A stretch of DNA of 17,432 nt from IMG/VR virus record IMGVR_UViG_2778261167_000008, positions 1 to 17,432 of that record. One strand, given 5' to 3'. A program made the translations under genes and the position numbers. Positions 10,720-14,383 of this stretch are shown here, piece by piece. Numbering within the stretch: the first letter of the stretch is position 1; every line of letters begins with the position of its first letter. The notes beneath the pieces were generated by a model. It worked only from the letters and a program-made list of their open reading frames with translations. It made no database searches and was not told the DNA's origin. Origin of the DNA: a virus (taxonomy: Duplodnaviria; Heunggongvirae; Uroviricota; Caudoviricetes).

Positions 10720-12756
10720 ATGAGCACTACACCAACCAATCAGCCAGTACCAAGCGAAAAGCCGCAAGACCTGAAATTTAACGCCGGTAAGATTGACGAG
10801 TTCGTAACCTCAATGGCTAAGCAATATATCGACCGTTTTGGCGGGGCGCATTACACAATTGAAGGGCTGCGCTGGATGGCGCAACAGGCCATTGCCGCGT
10901 TTGGCTATATTACTCTGGATAGTTTCGAAGACGGAAATACACTGACACTGCCAAATCAGGTTCTGCGTCTGGGGGCTACCGGAGAATATTATCGCTGGGA
11001 TGGCGAGTTACCTAAAGTCGTATCAGCTGGCTCTACTCCAGATTCGACTGGTGGCGTTGGCCCTGGTGCATGGGTTAGTGTTGGTGACGCATCACTCAGG
11101 GAAAATTTGGCGGCTAGTGACGGATTAAAATTAATAGGTGATGTACCTTCCGTCTTAAAATTAAACGATGTGAGTGGAATAGTTGGCGATAAGGTTTTTT
11201 TGAAATCTTATGTTGAGAATGAGAACAATGGTGGAGGATTTCTTGTCGCTGTGGATAACTCTACGCCAGTAGATAATATAGTTATATTTAATGGGAATGG
11301 TGTAAAGTGGAAGCGTTTATTCTTTAATGGAGAGGTTGACATTTACGATGCTGGTTATACAGGGTCAGGTGATGCCTCATCATTTATTAATTCGATTAAT
11401 AATCATGGGTATGACTGCATTGTCTCTGGAAAATGTGAGTTTACTGGTGTCATAAATATTGATGTCAGTAAAGGAGCATTAAAAGGGATAAACAAATGCA
11501 AGCTCATTGAGGCGGGGGTTGTGTCTGGTGATTATTATTTACAGATAAAGAATTCAAACACAGAATATGAAGATAGAGATGCAATAAATGCAACATCTGT
11601 TATTGATGGTATTTCGTTTGTTATAAGTGGAAGTAGAAAGATGTCACTTGGAGGAGCAGGTGGTGGTGAGCTCTCCGAGTTAAGAATCAGTAATTGTGGT
11701 TTTATATCATCTGCTGGAATTGAGTTTTTAGACAATTCATATCGAATTCTATTTGATAAATGTATTATTAGCAGGAGTTTTAATAATACTATAATTTATA
11801 ATTCATCAATTAATTCAGGGGAGGTAATAAAGTATGAGAACTGTTGGATAGTTGATAATGGAGGACCGTTATCATTTAAAAATGGACAATTCATTTTTGA
11901 TTCATGCAGTGCCCCAGCCGGTAAAAAAATAGGATATTTTGACCCAACATTTAAACTATCGGATAACGCAACGCTATCATTTGTTAATGGTAATATAGAA
12001 TTTCAGCCTTCTCAGTCTTTTGTTGCGTTTGAATTGAGCGGAAGTTCTAGGTTGAGTGTAAATAATACATCACTAACATTAACTAACGATTATATCTCAG
12101 TCCCAATTATATGTAATGATGATGGGGTTGTATTTTTAAACTCTTGCTCACTTCCTCTGTTTGATATTGTTAATTTGTCTAATAATGCAGCAACTAGACA
12201 GGTGGTAGGAGGAAATAGTAAAAAGATTATGTCTTATGGCTGTTACCCTCGTTCAGGATTTATAACAACGCAGTGGAATAAAGGAAATATAGTAAGCCCA
12301 TATATAAATTCACTATCAAATGGAAGCGGTCAGTTATTAAATTACTCAAACTGGAATCTTACACAGACAGGGACAGGTGTAGTTACAGCCGGAACAGATA
12401 CTGATGTTCCAAATGATTTGATGTTTTCAAGATCTCTATATGTAACCATACCGTCAGTTGGGGCTGCTGCAAACTTTTACCAAGAATGTGAAGAGTGTTC
12501 ACCTGGACGGTATTTTCAGCTTGGTTTTTGGGCTAAGAGTCAGGTAACAACAATATCTGGGATCGAATTTTTTGATAAAGAAGGAAATTCCGTACAGAGT
12601 AAAACATCATTTTCTATTCCTGATAGTGCTACATGGAATTTTTACGCGCTGGTAGATGTGGTTCCACCTGGAGCAAGCAAGGTTAGGGTTGGGTTTGATG
12701 TCTCAGGTGTAATTGGCGCTCTACATTTACATAATGTTATTTATGGATTGATTTAA
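10720..12756 (+). CDS. Chimeric tailspike: conserved N-terminal anchor domain plus AT-rich beta-helix (depolymerase-like) domain and C-terminal beta-rich module
   Basis: 678-aa ORF. Composition switches from GC-rich to AT-rich near nt 11100 (about codon 130). The AT-rich part encodes N/S/G/I-rich repeats typical of parallel beta-helix tailspikes (NGNGVKW, ISNCGFISSAGIEF, NGQFIFDSCS, NTSLTLTNDYISV). Confidence 0.7.
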   Translation: MSTTPTNQPVPSEKPQDLKFNAGKIDEFVTSMAKQYIDRFGGAHYTIEGLRWMAQQAIAAFGYITLDSFEDGNTLTLPNQVLRLGATGEYYRWDGELPKVVSAGSTPDSTGGVGPGAWVSVGDASLRENLAASDGLKLIGDVPSVLKLNDVSGIVGDKVFLKSYVENENNGGGFLVAVDNSTPVDNIVIFNGNGVKWKRLFFNGEVDIYDAGYTGSGDASSFINSINNHGYDCIVSGKCEFTGVINIDVSKGALKGINKCKLIEAGVVSGDYYLQIKNSNTEYEDRDAINATSVIDGISFVISGSRKMSLGGAGGGELSELRISNCGFISSAGIEFLDNSYRILFDKCIISRSFNNTIIYNSSINSGEVIKYENCWIVDNGGPLSFKNGQFIFDSCSAPAGKKIGYFDPTFKLSDNATLSFVNGNIEFQPSQSFVAFELSGSSRLSVNNTSLTLTNDYISVPIICNDDGVVFLNSCSLPLFDIVNLSNNAATRQVVGGNSKKIMSYGCYPRSGFITTQWNKGNIVSPYINSLSNGSGQLLNYSNWNLTQTGTGVVTAGTDTDVPNDLMFSRSLYVTIPSVGAAANFYQECEECSPGRYFQLGFWAKSQVTTISGIEFFDKEGNSVQSKTSFSIPDSATWNFYALVDVVPPGASKVRVGFDVSGVIGALHLHNVIYGLI

Positions 12757-12788
12757 AACTTTACAATTATGATTATTGCCGTTAAGAT

Positions 12789-12816
12789 CCACTCTTTTTA
12801 TAAAGAGTGGGTTTTT
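12789..12816 (+). terminator. Rho-independent terminator after the tailspike gene; the hairpin also covers the acyltransferase SD
   Basis: Hairpin CCACTCTTT-TTATA-AAGAGTGG followed by GTTTTT; the ATG of the next gene follows at 12817. Confidence 0.65.
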
Positions 12817-13908
12817 ATGGACAAGATATTCTCCATTCAGATTTTGCGTGGTATAGCTGCACTATTTGTTGTGTGCTTTCATTTTAGGTATGCAGTTAAT
12901 GATATATACGCGCAAAAAGATATAGGCAATCGTCTTTTTGAATTCGGATCATTTGGTGTTGATTTGTTTTTCATAATAAGCGGCTTCATTATGGCTATGT
13001 CAGCAAGGAAAAATGAGAATCTTTCTGAATTCTTTATAAAAAGATTTTTTAGAATATATCCACTGTACTTTGCAGTGCTTACATTATATATTTTACTTAG
13101 CTTTAATGAATACTCCTTGCCTCAGATAATAAAAAGCTATCTTCTCGTTCCTATAGATTATAAAAGCGAAATGCCTTACTATGGTTATAGTATAATGGCT
13201 ATAGCATGGACGCTTACTTATGAATTTTGGTTTTATTTTATTTTTGGTATTTCAAAAAAACTGTCCTACAAGAACAAATTTATTATTTCATCAGTGCTTT
13301 TATCTGCTCCAGTTGTTTTTGTTAATGGAATTAACATTGATGCATTTCATGCTAACTATGTTTTAAATTGGGGGGTATTTAATAACATCCAGTTTATAAC
13401 AAACCCTGTTGTATATAATTTTATACTTGGCATTCTGTCTTTTAATATATGTGTTTTTGTTTCTAAACACAAAGAGTTATTGCGCCCAGGATTGTCTCTA
13501 GTTTTACCTCTCTTGTTGTTATATGGTGTCATAGGCGTTGTTTCTATCAGAGGGATGGGGCATGGTATAAATCAGTGGGGATGGTATTGCTTTATTATCG
13601 TAACATCAATTGTTATCTCTGAAATGTATTTCAAGGATATGTATGCTAATAGCAAAATGGTGTATCTTGGTGAAATATCATTTTCCATATACCTTATTCA
13701 TCCATTATTATTTATTTTGGTTAATTCATACCATCCTTTTATTGATGTGTTTAACAGCCTTTCAGGATTTACAAGGCTTTCATGTCTTGTTGCTTTTGTG
13801 ATTTGCATATCACATATTGTATATCGGCTAATTGAACTTCCGACACATAACATAGGTAAGGAAATAGCTAAAAAGATTAAGTGTAAAAACATTGCACTTA
13901 TGGAATGA
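12817..13908 (+). CDS. Membrane acyltransferase, acyltransferase-3 family (Oac-like O-acetyltransferase candidate)
   Basis: About 363 aa, very hydrophobic and multi-pass. Family motifs: ILRGIAALFVVCFHF (Arg and His), GVDLFFIISGF, RFFRIYPLY. AT-rich. Start at ATG 12817 is preferred over the track's 12769. Confidence 0.8.
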   Translation: MDKIFSIQILRGIAALFVVCFHFRYAVNDIYAQKDIGNRLFEFGSFGVDLFFIISGFIMAMSARKNENLSEFFIKRFFRIYPLYFAVLTLYILLSFNEYSLPQIIKSYLLVPIDYKSEMPYYGYSIMAIAWTLTYEFWFYFIFGISKKLSYKNKFIISSVLLSAPVVFVNGINIDAFHANYVLNWGVFNNIQFITNPVVYNFILGILSFNICVFVSKHKELLRPGLSLVLPLLLLYGVIGVVSIRGMGHGINQWGWYCFIIVTSIVISEMYFKDMYANSKMVYLGEISFSIYLIHPLLFILVNSYHPFIDVFNSLSGFTRLSCLVAFVICISHIVYRLIELPTHNIGKEIAKKIKCKNIALME

Positions 13909-14110
13909 TATTTTCACATGCATTCATTGCGTCCAATAGACACACAAAGCTTTGCATCGGTTTGCAAGGCTTTGTGCTTCTGGTAGTAGATGTGATGGCG
14001 CAAAAAATTAGCGCAAAACAACTCAAAATATCGGAAGTGGTGATTCGCCTTGCACTAACACTCTGCTTTATGACTGCTATCTGTTCATATCGAAGCACAA
14101 TGATTTTATA

Positions 14111-14383
14111 GTGCCGCCTGTTGCGGGTAAACCTTCATGGGTTGACGTTCCTCCATTAACGCGGGCTGAGGTGATCGCTATCGCTGAAAATGAGCGGCAG
14201 CGATTAATTGTTAATGCTGACGCTATTATGATCGACTGGCGCACAGAACTGATGCTCGGGGAAATCTGCGACGCCAACAGAGCGAAGTTGTCGGCGTGGT
14301 TGGCCTATAAAAATAAAGTGAAATCCATCCCAGCGGAAGAGGCTATTACCGCTGAATTTAGTTGGCCAGATCAACCTGCATAG
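14111..14383 (+). pseudogene. 5'-truncated tail fibre assembly (Tfa) gene remnant
   Basis: GC-rich frame encoding the conserved C-terminal Tfa region (WVDVPPLTRAEVIAIAENERQRLIVNADAIMIDWRTELMLGEI...LSAWLAYKNKVKSIPAEE...FSWPDQP). The frame is open back to 13940 but has no ATG or SD, and the N-terminal part typical of Tfa is missing. Confidence 0.6.

What the first reader, a model, noticed from the sequence alone, without database searches (positions are those of the whole stretch)
10720..14383. Receptor-binding module swap: chimeric tailspike plus Oac-like acyltransferase replaced the ancestral fibre tip and truncated tfa
Seen in sequence: the tailspike ORF switches from GC-rich to AT-rich near nt 11100. 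The AT-rich block runs through the beta-helix-like domain and the acyltransferase-3 gene (12817-13908), then ends at a GC-rich, start-less Tfa C-terminal remnant (14111-14383). Established knowledge: beta-helix tailspikes do not need Tfa chaperones, and Oac-type acyltransferases of temperate phages acetylate O-antigen to block superinfection. Inference: an imported cassette couples a new receptor specificity to modification of that same receptor. The specific pairing may be undescribed, but I cannot show this without searches.
Basis: partly seen in the sequence, partly recalled or inferred. Interest (0 to 1): 0.7.

Follow-up and report, generated by a model that had tools for sequence, protein, structure and literature searches.

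The report
Swapped tailspike tip with linked acyltransferase
A prophage sitting next to the E. coli pphA gene carries a hybrid tailspike whose sugar-cutting tip arrived together with a neighbouring membrane acyltransferase gene, a two-gene unit also found in two other phage types; this is a clear example of a known pattern, not a new kind of system.

Summary
GC falls from 0.51 to 0.36 inside the tailspike ORF at about nt 11100. It stays low through an intact acyltransferase-3 (AT3) gene (12817-13908). It returns to 0.50 in a start-less C-terminal Tfa fragment (14111-14383).

- **Chimera:** residues 1-128 are the anchor of CobraSix-like siphoviruses. Residues 130-678 are a CBA120 TSP4-type (O78-subtype) beta-helix depolymerase.
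- **Cassette:** the tip, a 58-60 nt spacer and the AT3 gene travel together. The same unit occurs in P22-like and epsilon15/phiV10-like prophages of Salmonella (up to 96-100% nt identity in 150-nt windows; 91-95% overall) and of E. coli (86%).
- **No fibre tip was replaced:** relatives of this siphovirus always carry a tailspike, usually followed by an acyltransferase, and never a tfa.
- **The tfa fragment:** it is a fossil of a fibre-tfa-acyltransferase right end, seen intact in E. coli 1506 at the same sdsR/pphA site with the same integrase. About 200 bp of prophage-end DNA separates it from the cassette.
- **Second AT3:** a minus-strand AT3 gene (14689-15852) and attR (16340-16367) complete the prophage.

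That the AT3 acetylates the tailspike's own receptor is inferred, not shown. Tailspike-plus-O-antigen-modifier adjacency is already described.

The parts
8185..10662 (+). TipJ-family host-specificity / tail-tip protein (825 aa as called in public assemblies; the ORF list gives an upstream GTG at 8122)
   Evidence: phrog_469 tail protein, E 1e-250. RefSeq relatives are named 'host specificity factor TipJ family'. 82-87% nt identity to CobraSix-like phages and prophages.
10682..10703 (+). Terminator-like hairpin between the TipJ gene and the tailspike gene
   Evidence: Consensus scan: 8-bp stem with 6 GC pairs, followed by a T run. Pattern match only.
10720..11100 (+). Tailspike N-terminal anchor/head module (aa 1-127), GC 0.51, specific to the siphovirus family
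   Evidence: About 85% aa identity to CobraSix gp25 residues 1-128. Tail_spike_N PF18668, E 2.6e-20. PDB 9OCC_G gp13 residues 1-143, E 1.4e-53. Nucleotide homology to CobraSix-like genomes stops at 11003-11093.
11101..12756 (+). Tailspike receptor-binding/depolymerase module (aa 128-678), GC 0.36. CBA120 TSP4-type (O78 RBP subtype).
   Evidence: PDB 5W6H 'tailspike protein 4', E 7.9e-249. 60-65% aa identity to the tailspikes of CBA120 orf213, ECOO78, ep3 and Bp4. 84% aa identity to the TW14425 phiV10-like tail protein aa 217-765. 82% aa identity to a Salmonella P22-like tailspike. Junction mapped at 11100-11115.
12757..12816 (+). 60-nt intergenic linker of the cassette, with a promoter-like site at 12760-12788
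   Evidence: The same 58-60 nt spacing occurs in L022, L023-L026 and L001. 99-100% nt identity to the Salmonella cassettes in the 150-nt window 12755-12904 that contains the linker. Promoter-like TTTACA-17-TAAGAT is a consensus match only.
12817..13908 (+). AT3-only acyltransferase (363 aa), the putative O-antigen O-acetyltransferase of the cassette
   Evidence: PF01757, E 2.7e-31, full length. phrog_3333 O-acetyltransferase, E 1e-93. Motifs R11-X10-H22, FFIISGF and RFFR are intact, with 8-9 hydrophobic segments. 94% aa identity to TW14425. 96-98% to Salmonella and Citrobacter proteins.
13909..14110 (.). Spacer of prophage-end-type DNA. 13909-13974 continues the P22-like cassette flank. 13938-14078 resembles the attR-proximal arms of lambdoid prophages and the stretch just 3' of intS. 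The 68-aa ORF 13905-14111 is probably spurious.
   Evidence: No Pfam or PHROG hit for the 68-aa ORF.
14000..14066 (-). Long hairpin followed by a U run (terminator / sib-like element of an integrase transcript)
   Evidence: MFE -26 kcal/mol; shuffles average -15.6, z = -3.8, 0 of 200 shuffles as good. The inverted repeat TTAGCGCAA/TTGCGCTAA is conserved at other prophage right ends. Epsilon34 annotates the neighbouring 36-bp stretch (window 13939-13974, just upstream of the hairpin) as a possible terminator for int.
14111..14383 (+). Truncated tail-fibre assembly gene (tfa'), C-terminal ~88 codons only; a fossil
   Evidence: PF02413 profile positions 50-131 of 131. phrog_188, E 6e-21. 97% nt identity from 14118 onward to the 143-aa tfa of E. 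coli 1506.
14655..14681 (-). Terminator-like hairpin downstream of the minus-strand acyltransferase
   Evidence: 12-bp stem followed by a T run.
14689..15852 (-). Second AT3-only acyltransferase (387 aa), inherited with the ancestral fibre-tfa right end
   Evidence: PF01757, E 1.1e-22. phrog_3333, E 5e-35. Motifs intact. Same position and orientation as in E. coli 1506. 100% identical in L019. Only 34% identity over 184 aa to the plus-strand AT3.
16340..16367 (.). attR core: duplicated 3' end of the sRNA gene sdsR (ryeB); right boundary of the prophage
   Evidence: A 31-bp direct repeat ACAGGAATCGTATTCGGTCTCTTTTTATGTG lies at attL and attR of L019, and the same sequence lies at attL of 1506. 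Identity between the window and L019 falls from 99.6% to 70% here. The ryeB integration site is described in PMC7380047.
16497..17156 (+). Chromosomal pphA (serine/threonine phosphatase); flanking host gene, not part of the element
   Evidence: Metallophos PF00149. Annotated pphA in E. coli 1506.

Best explanation
The region is the receptor-recognition and lysogenic-conversion end of one mosaic temperate phage. The phage is integrated in the 3' end of sdsR, next to pphA.

Its tail is of the CobraSix siphovirus type. The tailspike keeps that family's N-terminal anchor (aa 1-128). At the conserved GAWVSVGDASLR linker it was recombined onto a CBA120-TSP4-type beta-helix depolymerase domain of the O78 RBP subtype. 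That domain, a 58-60 nt linker and the next gene, an AT3-only membrane acyltransferase, form a two-gene cassette. The cassette moves as a unit between P22-like, epsilon15/phiV10-like and CobraSix-like phages of Salmonella, E. coli and a third genus.

By analogy with Sf6 Oac and phiV10 Oac, the acyltransferase most likely O-acylates the O-antigen that the tailspike binds and cleaves. A lysogen would then stop adsorbing phages that carry this tailspike type.

The Tfa fragment and the minus-strand acyltransferase beyond it are what remains of an earlier fibre-tfa-acyltransferase right end, seen intact in the E. coli 1506 prophage that has the same integrase and att site. A siphovirus-type late region, ending in its own att-proximal arm, was joined to it in mid-tfa. 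Tfa is no longer needed because tailspikes of this type do not use Tfa chaperones.

Shown: the anatomy, the homology breakpoints, the occurrence of the cassette on three backbones, and the prophage boundary. Inferred: the enzyme's substrate, the exclusion phenotype, and the order and mechanism of the recombination events.
For: - **Composition and homology breaks coincide at 11100-11122**.
- **Two-part tailspike:** the N-terminus is about 85% identical to CobraSix gp25. The C-terminus matches PDB 5W6H TSP4 at E 8e-249. TSP4 cleaves the O78 O-antigen, and its D3 domain is a trimeric beta-helix (PMC8825819).
- **Cassette on three backbones:**
  - epsilon15/phiV10-like prophages in E. coli;
  - an epsilon15-like prophage in Salmonella, 95% nt identity with no gaps;
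  - P22-like prophages at argW in Salmonella, 96-99% identity over 11705-13915.
- **Unrelated anchors:** each backbone has a different N-terminal anchor, namely a phiV10-type anchor, the P22 Head_binding domain PF09008 and Tail_spike_N.
- **AT3 follows the tip:** more distant AT3 homologues (about 40% aa identity) again sit beside P22-like tailspikes, one of which was compared and has an unrelated tip.
- **Family norm:** CobraSix-like prophages D9, M37H and O22:H8 154 all have TipJ, then a variable tailspike, then an acyltransferase.
- **Intact enzyme:** AT3 catalytic motifs are present, and the protein matches phrog_3333 O-acetyltransferase.
- **Precedent:** the phiV10 oac is annotated as acetylating the host O-antigen and giving superinfection immunity (PMC9558356). 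Sf6 Oac blocks the Sf6 endorhamnosidase.
- **Fossil tfa:** E. coli 1506 has int-xis-DUF4060-RecT ... baseplate-fibre-tfa(143 aa)-AT3(-)-pphA.
- **One mobile genome:** locus L019 has a chromosome only 70-82% identical, yet carries the same int/xis (95.6%). Its spacer, tfa', AT3(-) and attR are 99.5-100% identical to the window. So tfa' and AT3(-) are part of the mobile phage genome.
Against: - No biochemical or phenotypic data exist for this acyltransferase.
- It is only remotely related to Sf6 Oac and not detectably related to phiV10 Oac in pairwise comparison. AT3 proteins also modify other glycans (PMC9558356).
- O78 specificity is extrapolated from 61-65% identity to TSP4-type tailspikes. 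Host serogroups were not determined.
- The cassette also occurs in Salmonella and a third genus, where an O78-type antigen is not established.
- Some carriers have lost the acyltransferase reading frame (5-nt duplication in L010) or the tailspike (deletion in L021). The pair is therefore not under uniform selection.
- The left part of the prophage lies outside the window, and contigs break at a tandem repeat. Whether the phage is intact, and how the mid-tfa junction arose, remain unresolved.
Confidence: 0.68

Rival explanations
1. One imported AT-rich cassette overwrote the distal part of an ancestral tail-fibre gene and the 5' half of tfa, turning a Tfa-dependent fibre into a Tfa-independent tailspike.
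For: tfa is truly truncated and lies downstream of the cassette. A relative at the same att site has fibre plus a full tfa. The tailspike is chimeric.
Against: The tailspike N-terminus is not a fibre shaft. It is the anchor of a family that always carries tailspikes and has no tfa. The cassette's right edge (13874-13974) and the tfa junction (about 14112) are separate breakpoints, with att-proximal-type DNA between them. Everything upstream, from tape measure to TipJ, is siphovirus-type, whereas the 1506 relative has baseplate J/gp47 and a gp53-like fibre.
Confidence: 0.1
2. Two separate prophages. tfa' and the minus-strand acyltransferase are debris of an older resident prophage in this chromosome. 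The siphovirus integrated (or was deleted) next to or into it, so the juxtaposition is a host-genome accident and not part of the phage.
For: The spacer 13938-14078 looks like the attR-proximal arm of lambdoid prophages. That is what a real phage end abutting foreign DNA would look like. An integrase-mediated insertion into tfa could have been the first step.
Against: The identical junction, tfa', AT3(-) and attR (99.5-100% identity) occur in a host whose chromosome is only 70-82% identical, bounded by a 31-bp att repeat and the same integrase. So the whole block now travels as one element.
Confidence: 0.12
3. The acyltransferase is a generic moron unrelated to the tailspike's receptor. It might acylate another envelope glycan such as ECA, capsule, peptidoglycan or LPS core. 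Its linkage to the tip would then reflect only the usual moron slot between the tail genes and att.
For: AT3 proteins have many substrates (PMC9558356). There is no close similarity to characterised Oac enzymes. The phage carries a second, unrelated AT3. Frameshifted alleles exist.
Against: The tip and AT3 keep the same 58-60 nt linker and move together across three backbones with unrelated anchors and unrelated downstream genes (holin, integrase, or spacer-tfa'). A more distant AT3 homologue (~40% aa) pairs with a tailspike whose tip is unrelated. The characterised precedents in this gene position modify the phage's own receptor.
Confidence: 0.22

Closest known systems
Escherichia phage phiV10 (Uetakevirus): tailspike followed by the oac O-acetyltransferase
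   Same: A temperate phage with an O-antigen-specific tailspike and an AT3 gene immediately next to it. The oac is annotated as acetylating the host O-antigen and giving superinfection immunity (PMC9558356). phiV10-like prophages in E. coli TW14425 and APEC17 and in Salmonella carry the same cassette as the window.
   Different: phiV10's tip is O157-specific, and its oac is convergent with the tailspike. Here the AT3 is co-directional, 60 nt downstream, and has no detectable pairwise similarity to phiV10 Oac. The backbone here is a siphovirus.
Shigella phage Sf6 (Lederbergvirus): gene 14 endorhamnosidase tailspike, oac, int
   Same: The gene order tailspike, AT3 O-antigen acetylase, integrase region. 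P22-like Salmonella prophages carry the window's cassette in exactly this slot. The window even keeps 66 nt of their flank downstream of the AT3 gene.
   Different: Sf6 Oac is 30% identical over only the first 164 residues. Its oac is antisense to the tailspike. Its receptor is the S. flexneri O-antigen.
CBA120 TSP4 (ORF213; PDB 5W6H) and the O78 RBP subtype
   Same: Residues 57-678 align end to end with the TSP4 head, D3', beta-helix D3 and D4 domains (E 8e-249; about 61% identity). This is well above the >=30% identity / >=60% coverage criterion used to assign RBP subtypes in PMC10408124.
   Different: TSP4 has a 335-residue N-terminal baseplate anchor and XD1-3 domains for a branched complex on a lytic myovirus (PMC8825819). 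Here a 56-residue siphovirus-specific N-terminus replaces it. Specificity for O78 is not tested.
Enterobacter phage CobraSix and CobraSix-like E. coli prophages (D9, M37H, O22:H8 154)
   Same: The tail module and the tailspike anchor are 82-87% nt identical. The layout TipJ, then tailspike, then a moron (an acyltransferase in the E. coli prophages) is shared.
   Different: They have different tailspike tips (beta-helix, GDSL, GDPD types), different acyltransferases that are mostly antisense, umuDC/humD genes, and other att sites (argW, yciA-yciB). None has a tfa fragment.
E. coli 1506 prophage at sdsR/pphA
   Same: The same integration site, and an integrase/excisionase block that is 95.6% identical to that of the window-type prophage in L019. 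The same right end, from the tfa C-terminus through AT3(-) to attR, at 97% identity.
   Different: It has baseplate J/gp47, DUF2612, a gp53-like fibre and a complete 143-aa tfa. It has no tailspike and no plus-strand AT3.

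Membership tests
Modular O-antigen tailspike, CBA120 TSP4 / O78 RBP subtype | N-terminal head domain of TSP1/gp66 type (Pfam Tail_spike_N) | tested here: met
   PF18668, E 2.6e-20, residues 63-123.
Modular O-antigen tailspike, CBA120 TSP4 / O78 RBP subtype | End-to-end homology of the receptor-binding part to a solved TSP4 structure (D3', beta-helix D3, D4) | tested here: met
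   5W6H_A, E 7.9e-249, query 57-678 against chain 77-697. The domain scheme comes from PMC8825819. The fold was not modelled here; it is inferred from homology.
Modular O-antigen tailspike, CBA120 TSP4 / O78 RBP subtype | At least 30% identity over at least 60% coverage to subtype members (criterion of PMC10408124) | tested here: met
   60-65% identity over 99-100% of residues 131-678 to CBA120 orf213, ECOO78, ep3, Bp4 and PhAPEC5.
Modular O-antigen tailspike, CBA120 TSP4 / O78 RBP subtype | Cleaves E. coli O78 O-antigen | not testable with these tools
   Needs purified protein and LPS. Host serogroups were not determined; a literature look-up for TW14425 gave no serotype.
Phage AT3 O-antigen O-acetyltransferase (Sf6 Oac / phiV10 Oac type) | Full-length Acyl_transf_3 domain with no SGNH fusion (AT3-only) | tested here: met
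   PF01757 profile positions 3-325 of 326 in a 363-aa protein. phrog_3333 O-acetyltransferase, E 1e-93.
Phage AT3 O-antigen O-acetyltransferase (Sf6 Oac / phiV10 Oac type) | Conserved R/K-X10-H and RxxR motifs (PMC9558356) and multiple transmembrane helices | tested here: met
   R11-X10-H22, FFIISGF at residue 51 and RFFR at residue 76. A crude Kyte-Doolittle scan gives 8-9 hydrophobic segments; about 10 are expected.
Phage AT3 O-antigen O-acetyltransferase (Sf6 Oac / phiV10 Oac type) | Close sequence relationship to a characterised Oac | tested here: not met
   Sf6 Oac: 30% identity over 164 aa, E 2e-7. phiV10 Oac: no significant alignment, E 0.10. Membership holds only at the AT3 family level.
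Phage AT3 O-antigen O-acetyltransferase (Sf6 Oac / phiV10 Oac type) | Encoded next to the receptor-binding protein gene of a temperate phage | tested here: met
   60 nt downstream of the tailspike here. The same holds on P22-like and epsilon15-like backbones.
Phage AT3 O-antigen O-acetyltransferase (Sf6 Oac / phiV10 Oac type) | Acetylates the O-antigen and blocks adsorption of the cognate phage | not testable with these tools
   Requires LPS chemistry and adsorption assays.
Tail-fibre assembly protein Tfa (Caudo_TAP, PF02413) | Complete domain with its own start codon | tested here: not met
   Only profile positions 50-131 of 131 are present. Homology to the 143-aa Tfa of E. coli 1506 begins at about codon 56. 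There is no plausible start; the GTG at 14111 lies at the junction.
Tail-fibre assembly protein Tfa (Caudo_TAP, PF02413) | Preceded by its cognate tail-fibre gene | tested here: not met
   The window has spacer, AT3 and tailspike upstream. The gp53-like fibre is present only in E. coli 1506.
sdsR (ryeB)-integrating prophage | Direct repeat of the 3' end of sdsR at both prophage ends, between yebY and pphA | tested here: met
   31-bp repeat at attL and attR of L019. The same core lies at window 16340-16367 and at attL of 1506. Only attR lies inside the window. The site is described in PMC7380047.

The most novel reading that the evidence does not exclude
The tailspike tip and the acyltransferase form a discrete, self-contained 'recognise-and-modify' cassette. 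It has a fixed 58-60 nt linker that may carry its own promoter. It is exchanged as a unit between podoviruses (P22-like, epsilon15-like) and siphoviruses (CobraSix-like) across Salmonella, E. coli and a third genus, and the acyltransferase specificity is matched to the glycan its partner cleaves. If that is general, the substrate of uncharacterised phage AT3 enzymes could be predicted from the adjacent tailspike subtype. Each swap of receptor specificity would automatically bring the matching self-exclusion function. The orphan minus-strand AT3 left behind with the tfa fossil would be the trace of the previous pair.
Probability: 0.4. Interest if true: 0.5.

Novelty: new member of a known kind. 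Interest (0 to 1): 0.33.

Why it matters
The locus shows, with clean breakpoints, how a temperate phage changes host-surface specificity. A conserved anchor is kept, while the sugar-cutting tip and the gene that probably masks that same sugar in the lysogen are imported together.

The same two-gene unit sits in three unrelated tail architectures and at least three host genera. This supports treating tip plus modifier as one exchangeable module when predicting phage host range, when interpreting genetic serotyping, or when engineering tailspikes. On serotyping, prophage acyltransferases can alter O-antigens without changing the O-antigen gene cluster.

It also gives a worked example of how to read a truncated tfa: as a fossil of whole-module replacement, not as collateral damage from a tip swap. 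None of this is a new principle.

Tried and rejected
- **RNA genes:** tRNA and Rfam scans of the window found nothing, so the att site is not a tRNA. The sdsR duplicate is too short for Rfam; I identified it by comparing attL and attR instead.
- **Complete E. coli genomes:** none of 5,426 carries the window's arrangement over at least 80% of its length. None has the mid-tfa junction, and only three have the intact fibre-tfa-AT3(-) end. The other end of the prophage could not be examined in a closed genome.
- **Walking left in draft assemblies:** this fails because the three carrier contigs examined end at the 9-bp tandem repeat at the window start.
- **Nested integration:** I considered that tfa' marks site-specific integration of the siphovirus into a resident prophage. 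The att-proximal look of the spacer fits as a first step, but the identical block in another genus shows it is now one element. I found no similarity between the ydfJ-type prophage ends and the tfa junction core. CobraSix's own att region does not match the spacer.
- **Host serogroup:** I looked for the serotype of TW14425 in the literature to test the O78 link and found none. I did not attempt in-silico serotyping.
- **ORF 13905-14111 (68 aa):** rejected as a gene, with no family hit and overlap with the spacer repeats.
- **Not run:** structure prediction was not needed because a solved homologue covers residues 57-678.

Full report
**1. Observation**

The window is the late/right end of a prophage followed by E. 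coli chromosome (pphA, yebW).

- **Composition.** GC is 0.53 across the tail genes and 0.51 in tailspike codons 1-127. It drops to 0.36 for the rest of the tailspike ORF, with GC3 falling from 0.46 to 0.25. It is 0.31 in the next gene.
- **Tfa fragment.** GC recovers to 0.50 in a 273-nt reading frame that matches only the C-terminal two thirds of the Caudo_TAP profile (positions 50-131 of 131).
- **Acyltransferase.** The 12817-13908 product is a full-length Acyl_transf_3 protein (E 2.7e-31).
- **Two omissions.** A 202-bp spacer of intermediate composition separates the AT-rich block from the Tfa fragment. AT-rich DNA resumes after the fragment and encodes a second acyltransferase-3 protein on the minus strand (14689-15852).

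**2. The tailspike is a two-part chimera**

- Window positions 1 to about 11090 are 82-87% identical to CobraSix-like siphoviruses and their E. coli prophages.
- Tailspike residues 1-128 are about 85% identical to CobraSix gp25. Similarity then collapses.
- From residue 130 the protein is 84% identical to residues 217-765 of a tail protein in E. coli TW14425. The first 216 residues of that protein are 84% identical to the phiV10 tail-fibre anchor.
- A nucleotide alignment places the switch at 11100-11115, just after the codons for GAWVSVGDASLR.
- The C-terminal part aligns end to end with the solved structure of CBA120 tailspike protein 4 (5W6H, E 8e-249). It is 60-65% identical to the tailspikes of O78-infecting phages such as vB_EcoM_ECOO78 and of related phages (ep3, Bp4).
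- TSP4 cleaves the O78 O-antigen and has a trimeric beta-helix catalytic domain (PMC8825819).
- PMC10408124 assigns RBP subtypes at 30% identity or more. By that criterion this is an O78-subtype tip. That is a prediction, not a measurement.

**3. The tip and the acyltransferase travel together**

DNA homology to the TW14425 and APEC17 prophages runs uninterrupted from 11122 to 13874, covering tip, linker and acyltransferase (86%). The acyltransferases are 94% identical. A protein search then found 96-98% identical acyltransferases in Salmonella enterica and Citrobacter. Their contexts are as follows.

| Backbone and host | Locus | Match to window | Identity | Gene after the AT3 |
|---|---|---|---|---|
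| epsilon15-like, Salmonella | L022 | 11122-13874, no gaps | 95% | holin |
| P22-like at argW, Salmonella | L023-L026 | 11705-13915 (full match 11188-13974) | 96-99% (91% over the full match) | integrase |
| epsilon15/phiV10-like, E. coli | L001, L005 | 11122-13874 | 86% | holin |
| CobraSix-like siphovirus | window | n/a | n/a | spacer, then tfa' |

- The P22-like tailspikes carry the P22 head-binding domain in front of the same tip.
- In all cases the acyltransferase starts 58-60 nt after the tailspike stop.
- The three backbones have unrelated anchors, but share tip, linker and acyltransferase.
- More distant homologues of the acyltransferase (about 40% identity) again lie beside P22-like tailspikes; the one I compared has an unrelated tip.
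- Within the CobraSix-like family, an acyltransferase next to the tailspike is the norm (strains D9, M37H, O22:H8 154).

**4. The acyltransferase**

- It is AT3-only (363 aa) and keeps the R-X10-H, FFxxSGF and RxxR motifs (motifs as reviewed in PMC9558356).
- It matches the PHROG O-acetyltransferase family.
- It is only distantly related to Sf6 Oac (30% over 164 residues) and not detectably related to phiV10 Oac. 'Oac-like' is therefore a family-level statement.
- Functional inference rests on position and precedent. Sf6 Oac acetylation hinders the Sf6 endorhamnosidase and gives immunity to superinfection. The phiV10 oac, next to its tailspike, is annotated as modifying the O157 antigen for superinfection immunity.
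[quoted passage not shown] The pairing as such is known.

**5. The Tfa fragment and what lies beyond it**

- From 14118 the window is 97% identical to E. coli 1506. There a 143-aa tfa follows a gp53-like fibre, DUF2612 and baseplate J genes. It is followed by the same minus-strand acyltransferase and then pphA.
- That prophage begins next to yebY with an integrase and excisionase.
- Metagenome contig L019 has a chromosome only 70-82% identical to the window's. It shows yebY-int-xis-DUF4060-RecT, then a deletion, then tailspike, acyltransferase, spacer, tfa', acyltransferase(-) and pphA. Its int/xis block is 95.6% identical to 1506.
- Identity between L019 and the window, by segment:

| Segment | Identity |
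|---|---|
| Spacer through attR | 99.5-100% |
| Acyltransferase gene | 98% |
| Tailspike tip | 96% |
| Tailspike anchor | 87% |

- A 31-bp direct repeat bounds that prophage. The same core lies at window 16340-16367 and is the 3' end of the sRNA gene sdsR (ryeB). This is a described integration hot spot (PMC7380047).
- Hence tfa' and the second acyltransferase are inside the same mobile element. They are relics of a fibre-tfa-acyltransferase right end.
- The drop to 87% in the anchor shows that the anchor/tip boundary has been used for recombination again since.

**6. The spacer**

- Positions 13909-13974 continue the P22-like flank.
- Positions 13938-14078 resemble the last 100-150 bp of lambdoid prophages before torT or ydfJ, and the stretch just 3' of intS.
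- The spacer contains a strong minus-strand hairpin with a U tract (-26 kcal/mol, z = -3.8).
- I read this as the att-proximal arm of the donor of the siphovirus late region, including an int-transcript terminator or sib-like element.
- That this arm ends about 35-45 nt before the tfa junction suggests the join may have begun as an integrase-mediated event at a secondary site, followed by deletion. This is inference, and I could not test it.

**7. Verdict on the interpretation**

- Correct: a chimeric tailspike, an imported AT-rich cassette that includes an acyltransferase, a truncated and now dispensable tfa, and a plausible receptor-masking function.
- Incorrect or unsupported: that a fibre tip was replaced; that the cassette import itself truncated tfa; that the acyltransferase is close to Oac; and that the pairing may be undescribed.
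- Missed: the second acyltransferase, the prophage boundary at sdsR, and the fact that the cassette is shared by three phage architectures.

**8. Novelty and interest**

This is a new, uncharacterised member of a known kind: temperate-phage tailspike plus O-antigen-modifying enzyme, with modular tip exchange. The modest new point is the evidence that tip and modifier move as one unit across morphotypes and genera, and that the previous pair left an orphan acyltransferase. Decay variants show that selection on the pair is not uniform; these are a 5-nt duplication that frameshifts the acyltransferase, and deletions that remove the tailspike or the whole tail but keep the acyltransferase. Interest is about 0.33.

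Noticed in passing
window 14689-15852 (minus strand): A second, intact AT3-only acyltransferase (387 aa, GC 0.30), convergent with the first and only 34% identical to it over 184 aa. It is part of the prophage right end shared with E. coli 1506, so the phage carries two acyltransferases flanking the tfa fossil.
   Followed up: yes
window 16340-16367: attR core ACAGGAATCGTGTTCGGTCTCTTTTTAT. It is a duplicate of the 3' end (terminator) of the sRNA gene sdsR/ryeB. The prophage therefore occupies the known ryeA/ryeB hot spot between yebY and pphA.
   Followed up: yes
window 13938-14078, hairpin 14000-14066 (minus strand): A conserved prophage-end element: CACACAAAGCTTTGCA..GGCTTTGTGCTTCT followed by the inverted repeat TTAGCGCAA/TTGCGCTAA and a T run. 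It is found at the right ends of lambdoid prophages at torT and ydfJ and just 3' of intS. Parts of it match in 1,565 of 5,426 E. coli genomes. It is probably an int terminator or sib-like retroregulator.
   Followed up: partly
window 1-58: The window opens inside a 9-bp tandem repeat (GCAGAGCAG)n, which encodes (AEQ)n at the end of an upstream gene. The three carrier contigs examined end within about 60 nt of this point, so the repeat breaks short-read assemblies.
   Followed up: partly
L010 (GCA_042443995.1), equivalent to window 13240-13245: A 5-nt duplication (TTTTA in a TTTTATTTTATTTT run) frameshifts the plus-strand acyltransferase in an otherwise 99.97% identical locus. This could be decay or slippage-prone on/off switching.
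   Followed up: partly
L021 (SRR32936746) and L019 (ERZ27315713), relative to window 4197-12708 and upstream of 10627: Independent deletion variants. One removes the tape measure through the tailspike but keeps both acyltransferases. The other removes everything from RecT to the end of TipJ but keeps the tailspike and both acyltransferases.
   Followed up: partly
window 6810-7349: An HNH endonuclease gene (Pfam HNH_3) sits among the tail genes. It is absent at this position in the O22:H8 154 relative and lies elsewhere in M37H, so it is probably a mobile homing-type insertion.
   Followed up: no
L019 (ENA ERZ27315713 k141_165068): The same prophage right end (99.5-100% identical) lies in a chromosome only 70-82% identical to E. 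coli at pphA, yebW and yebY. This indicates recent transfer between genera. Near-identical acyltransferases are named from Citrobacter sp. S5 and Salmonella diarizonae.
   Followed up: partly
window 17157-17432 (minus strand): The yebW-like ORF (DUF1482) is called at 91 aa here but at 63 aa in other assemblies. This is a start-codon or annotation difference, not examined further.
   Followed up: no
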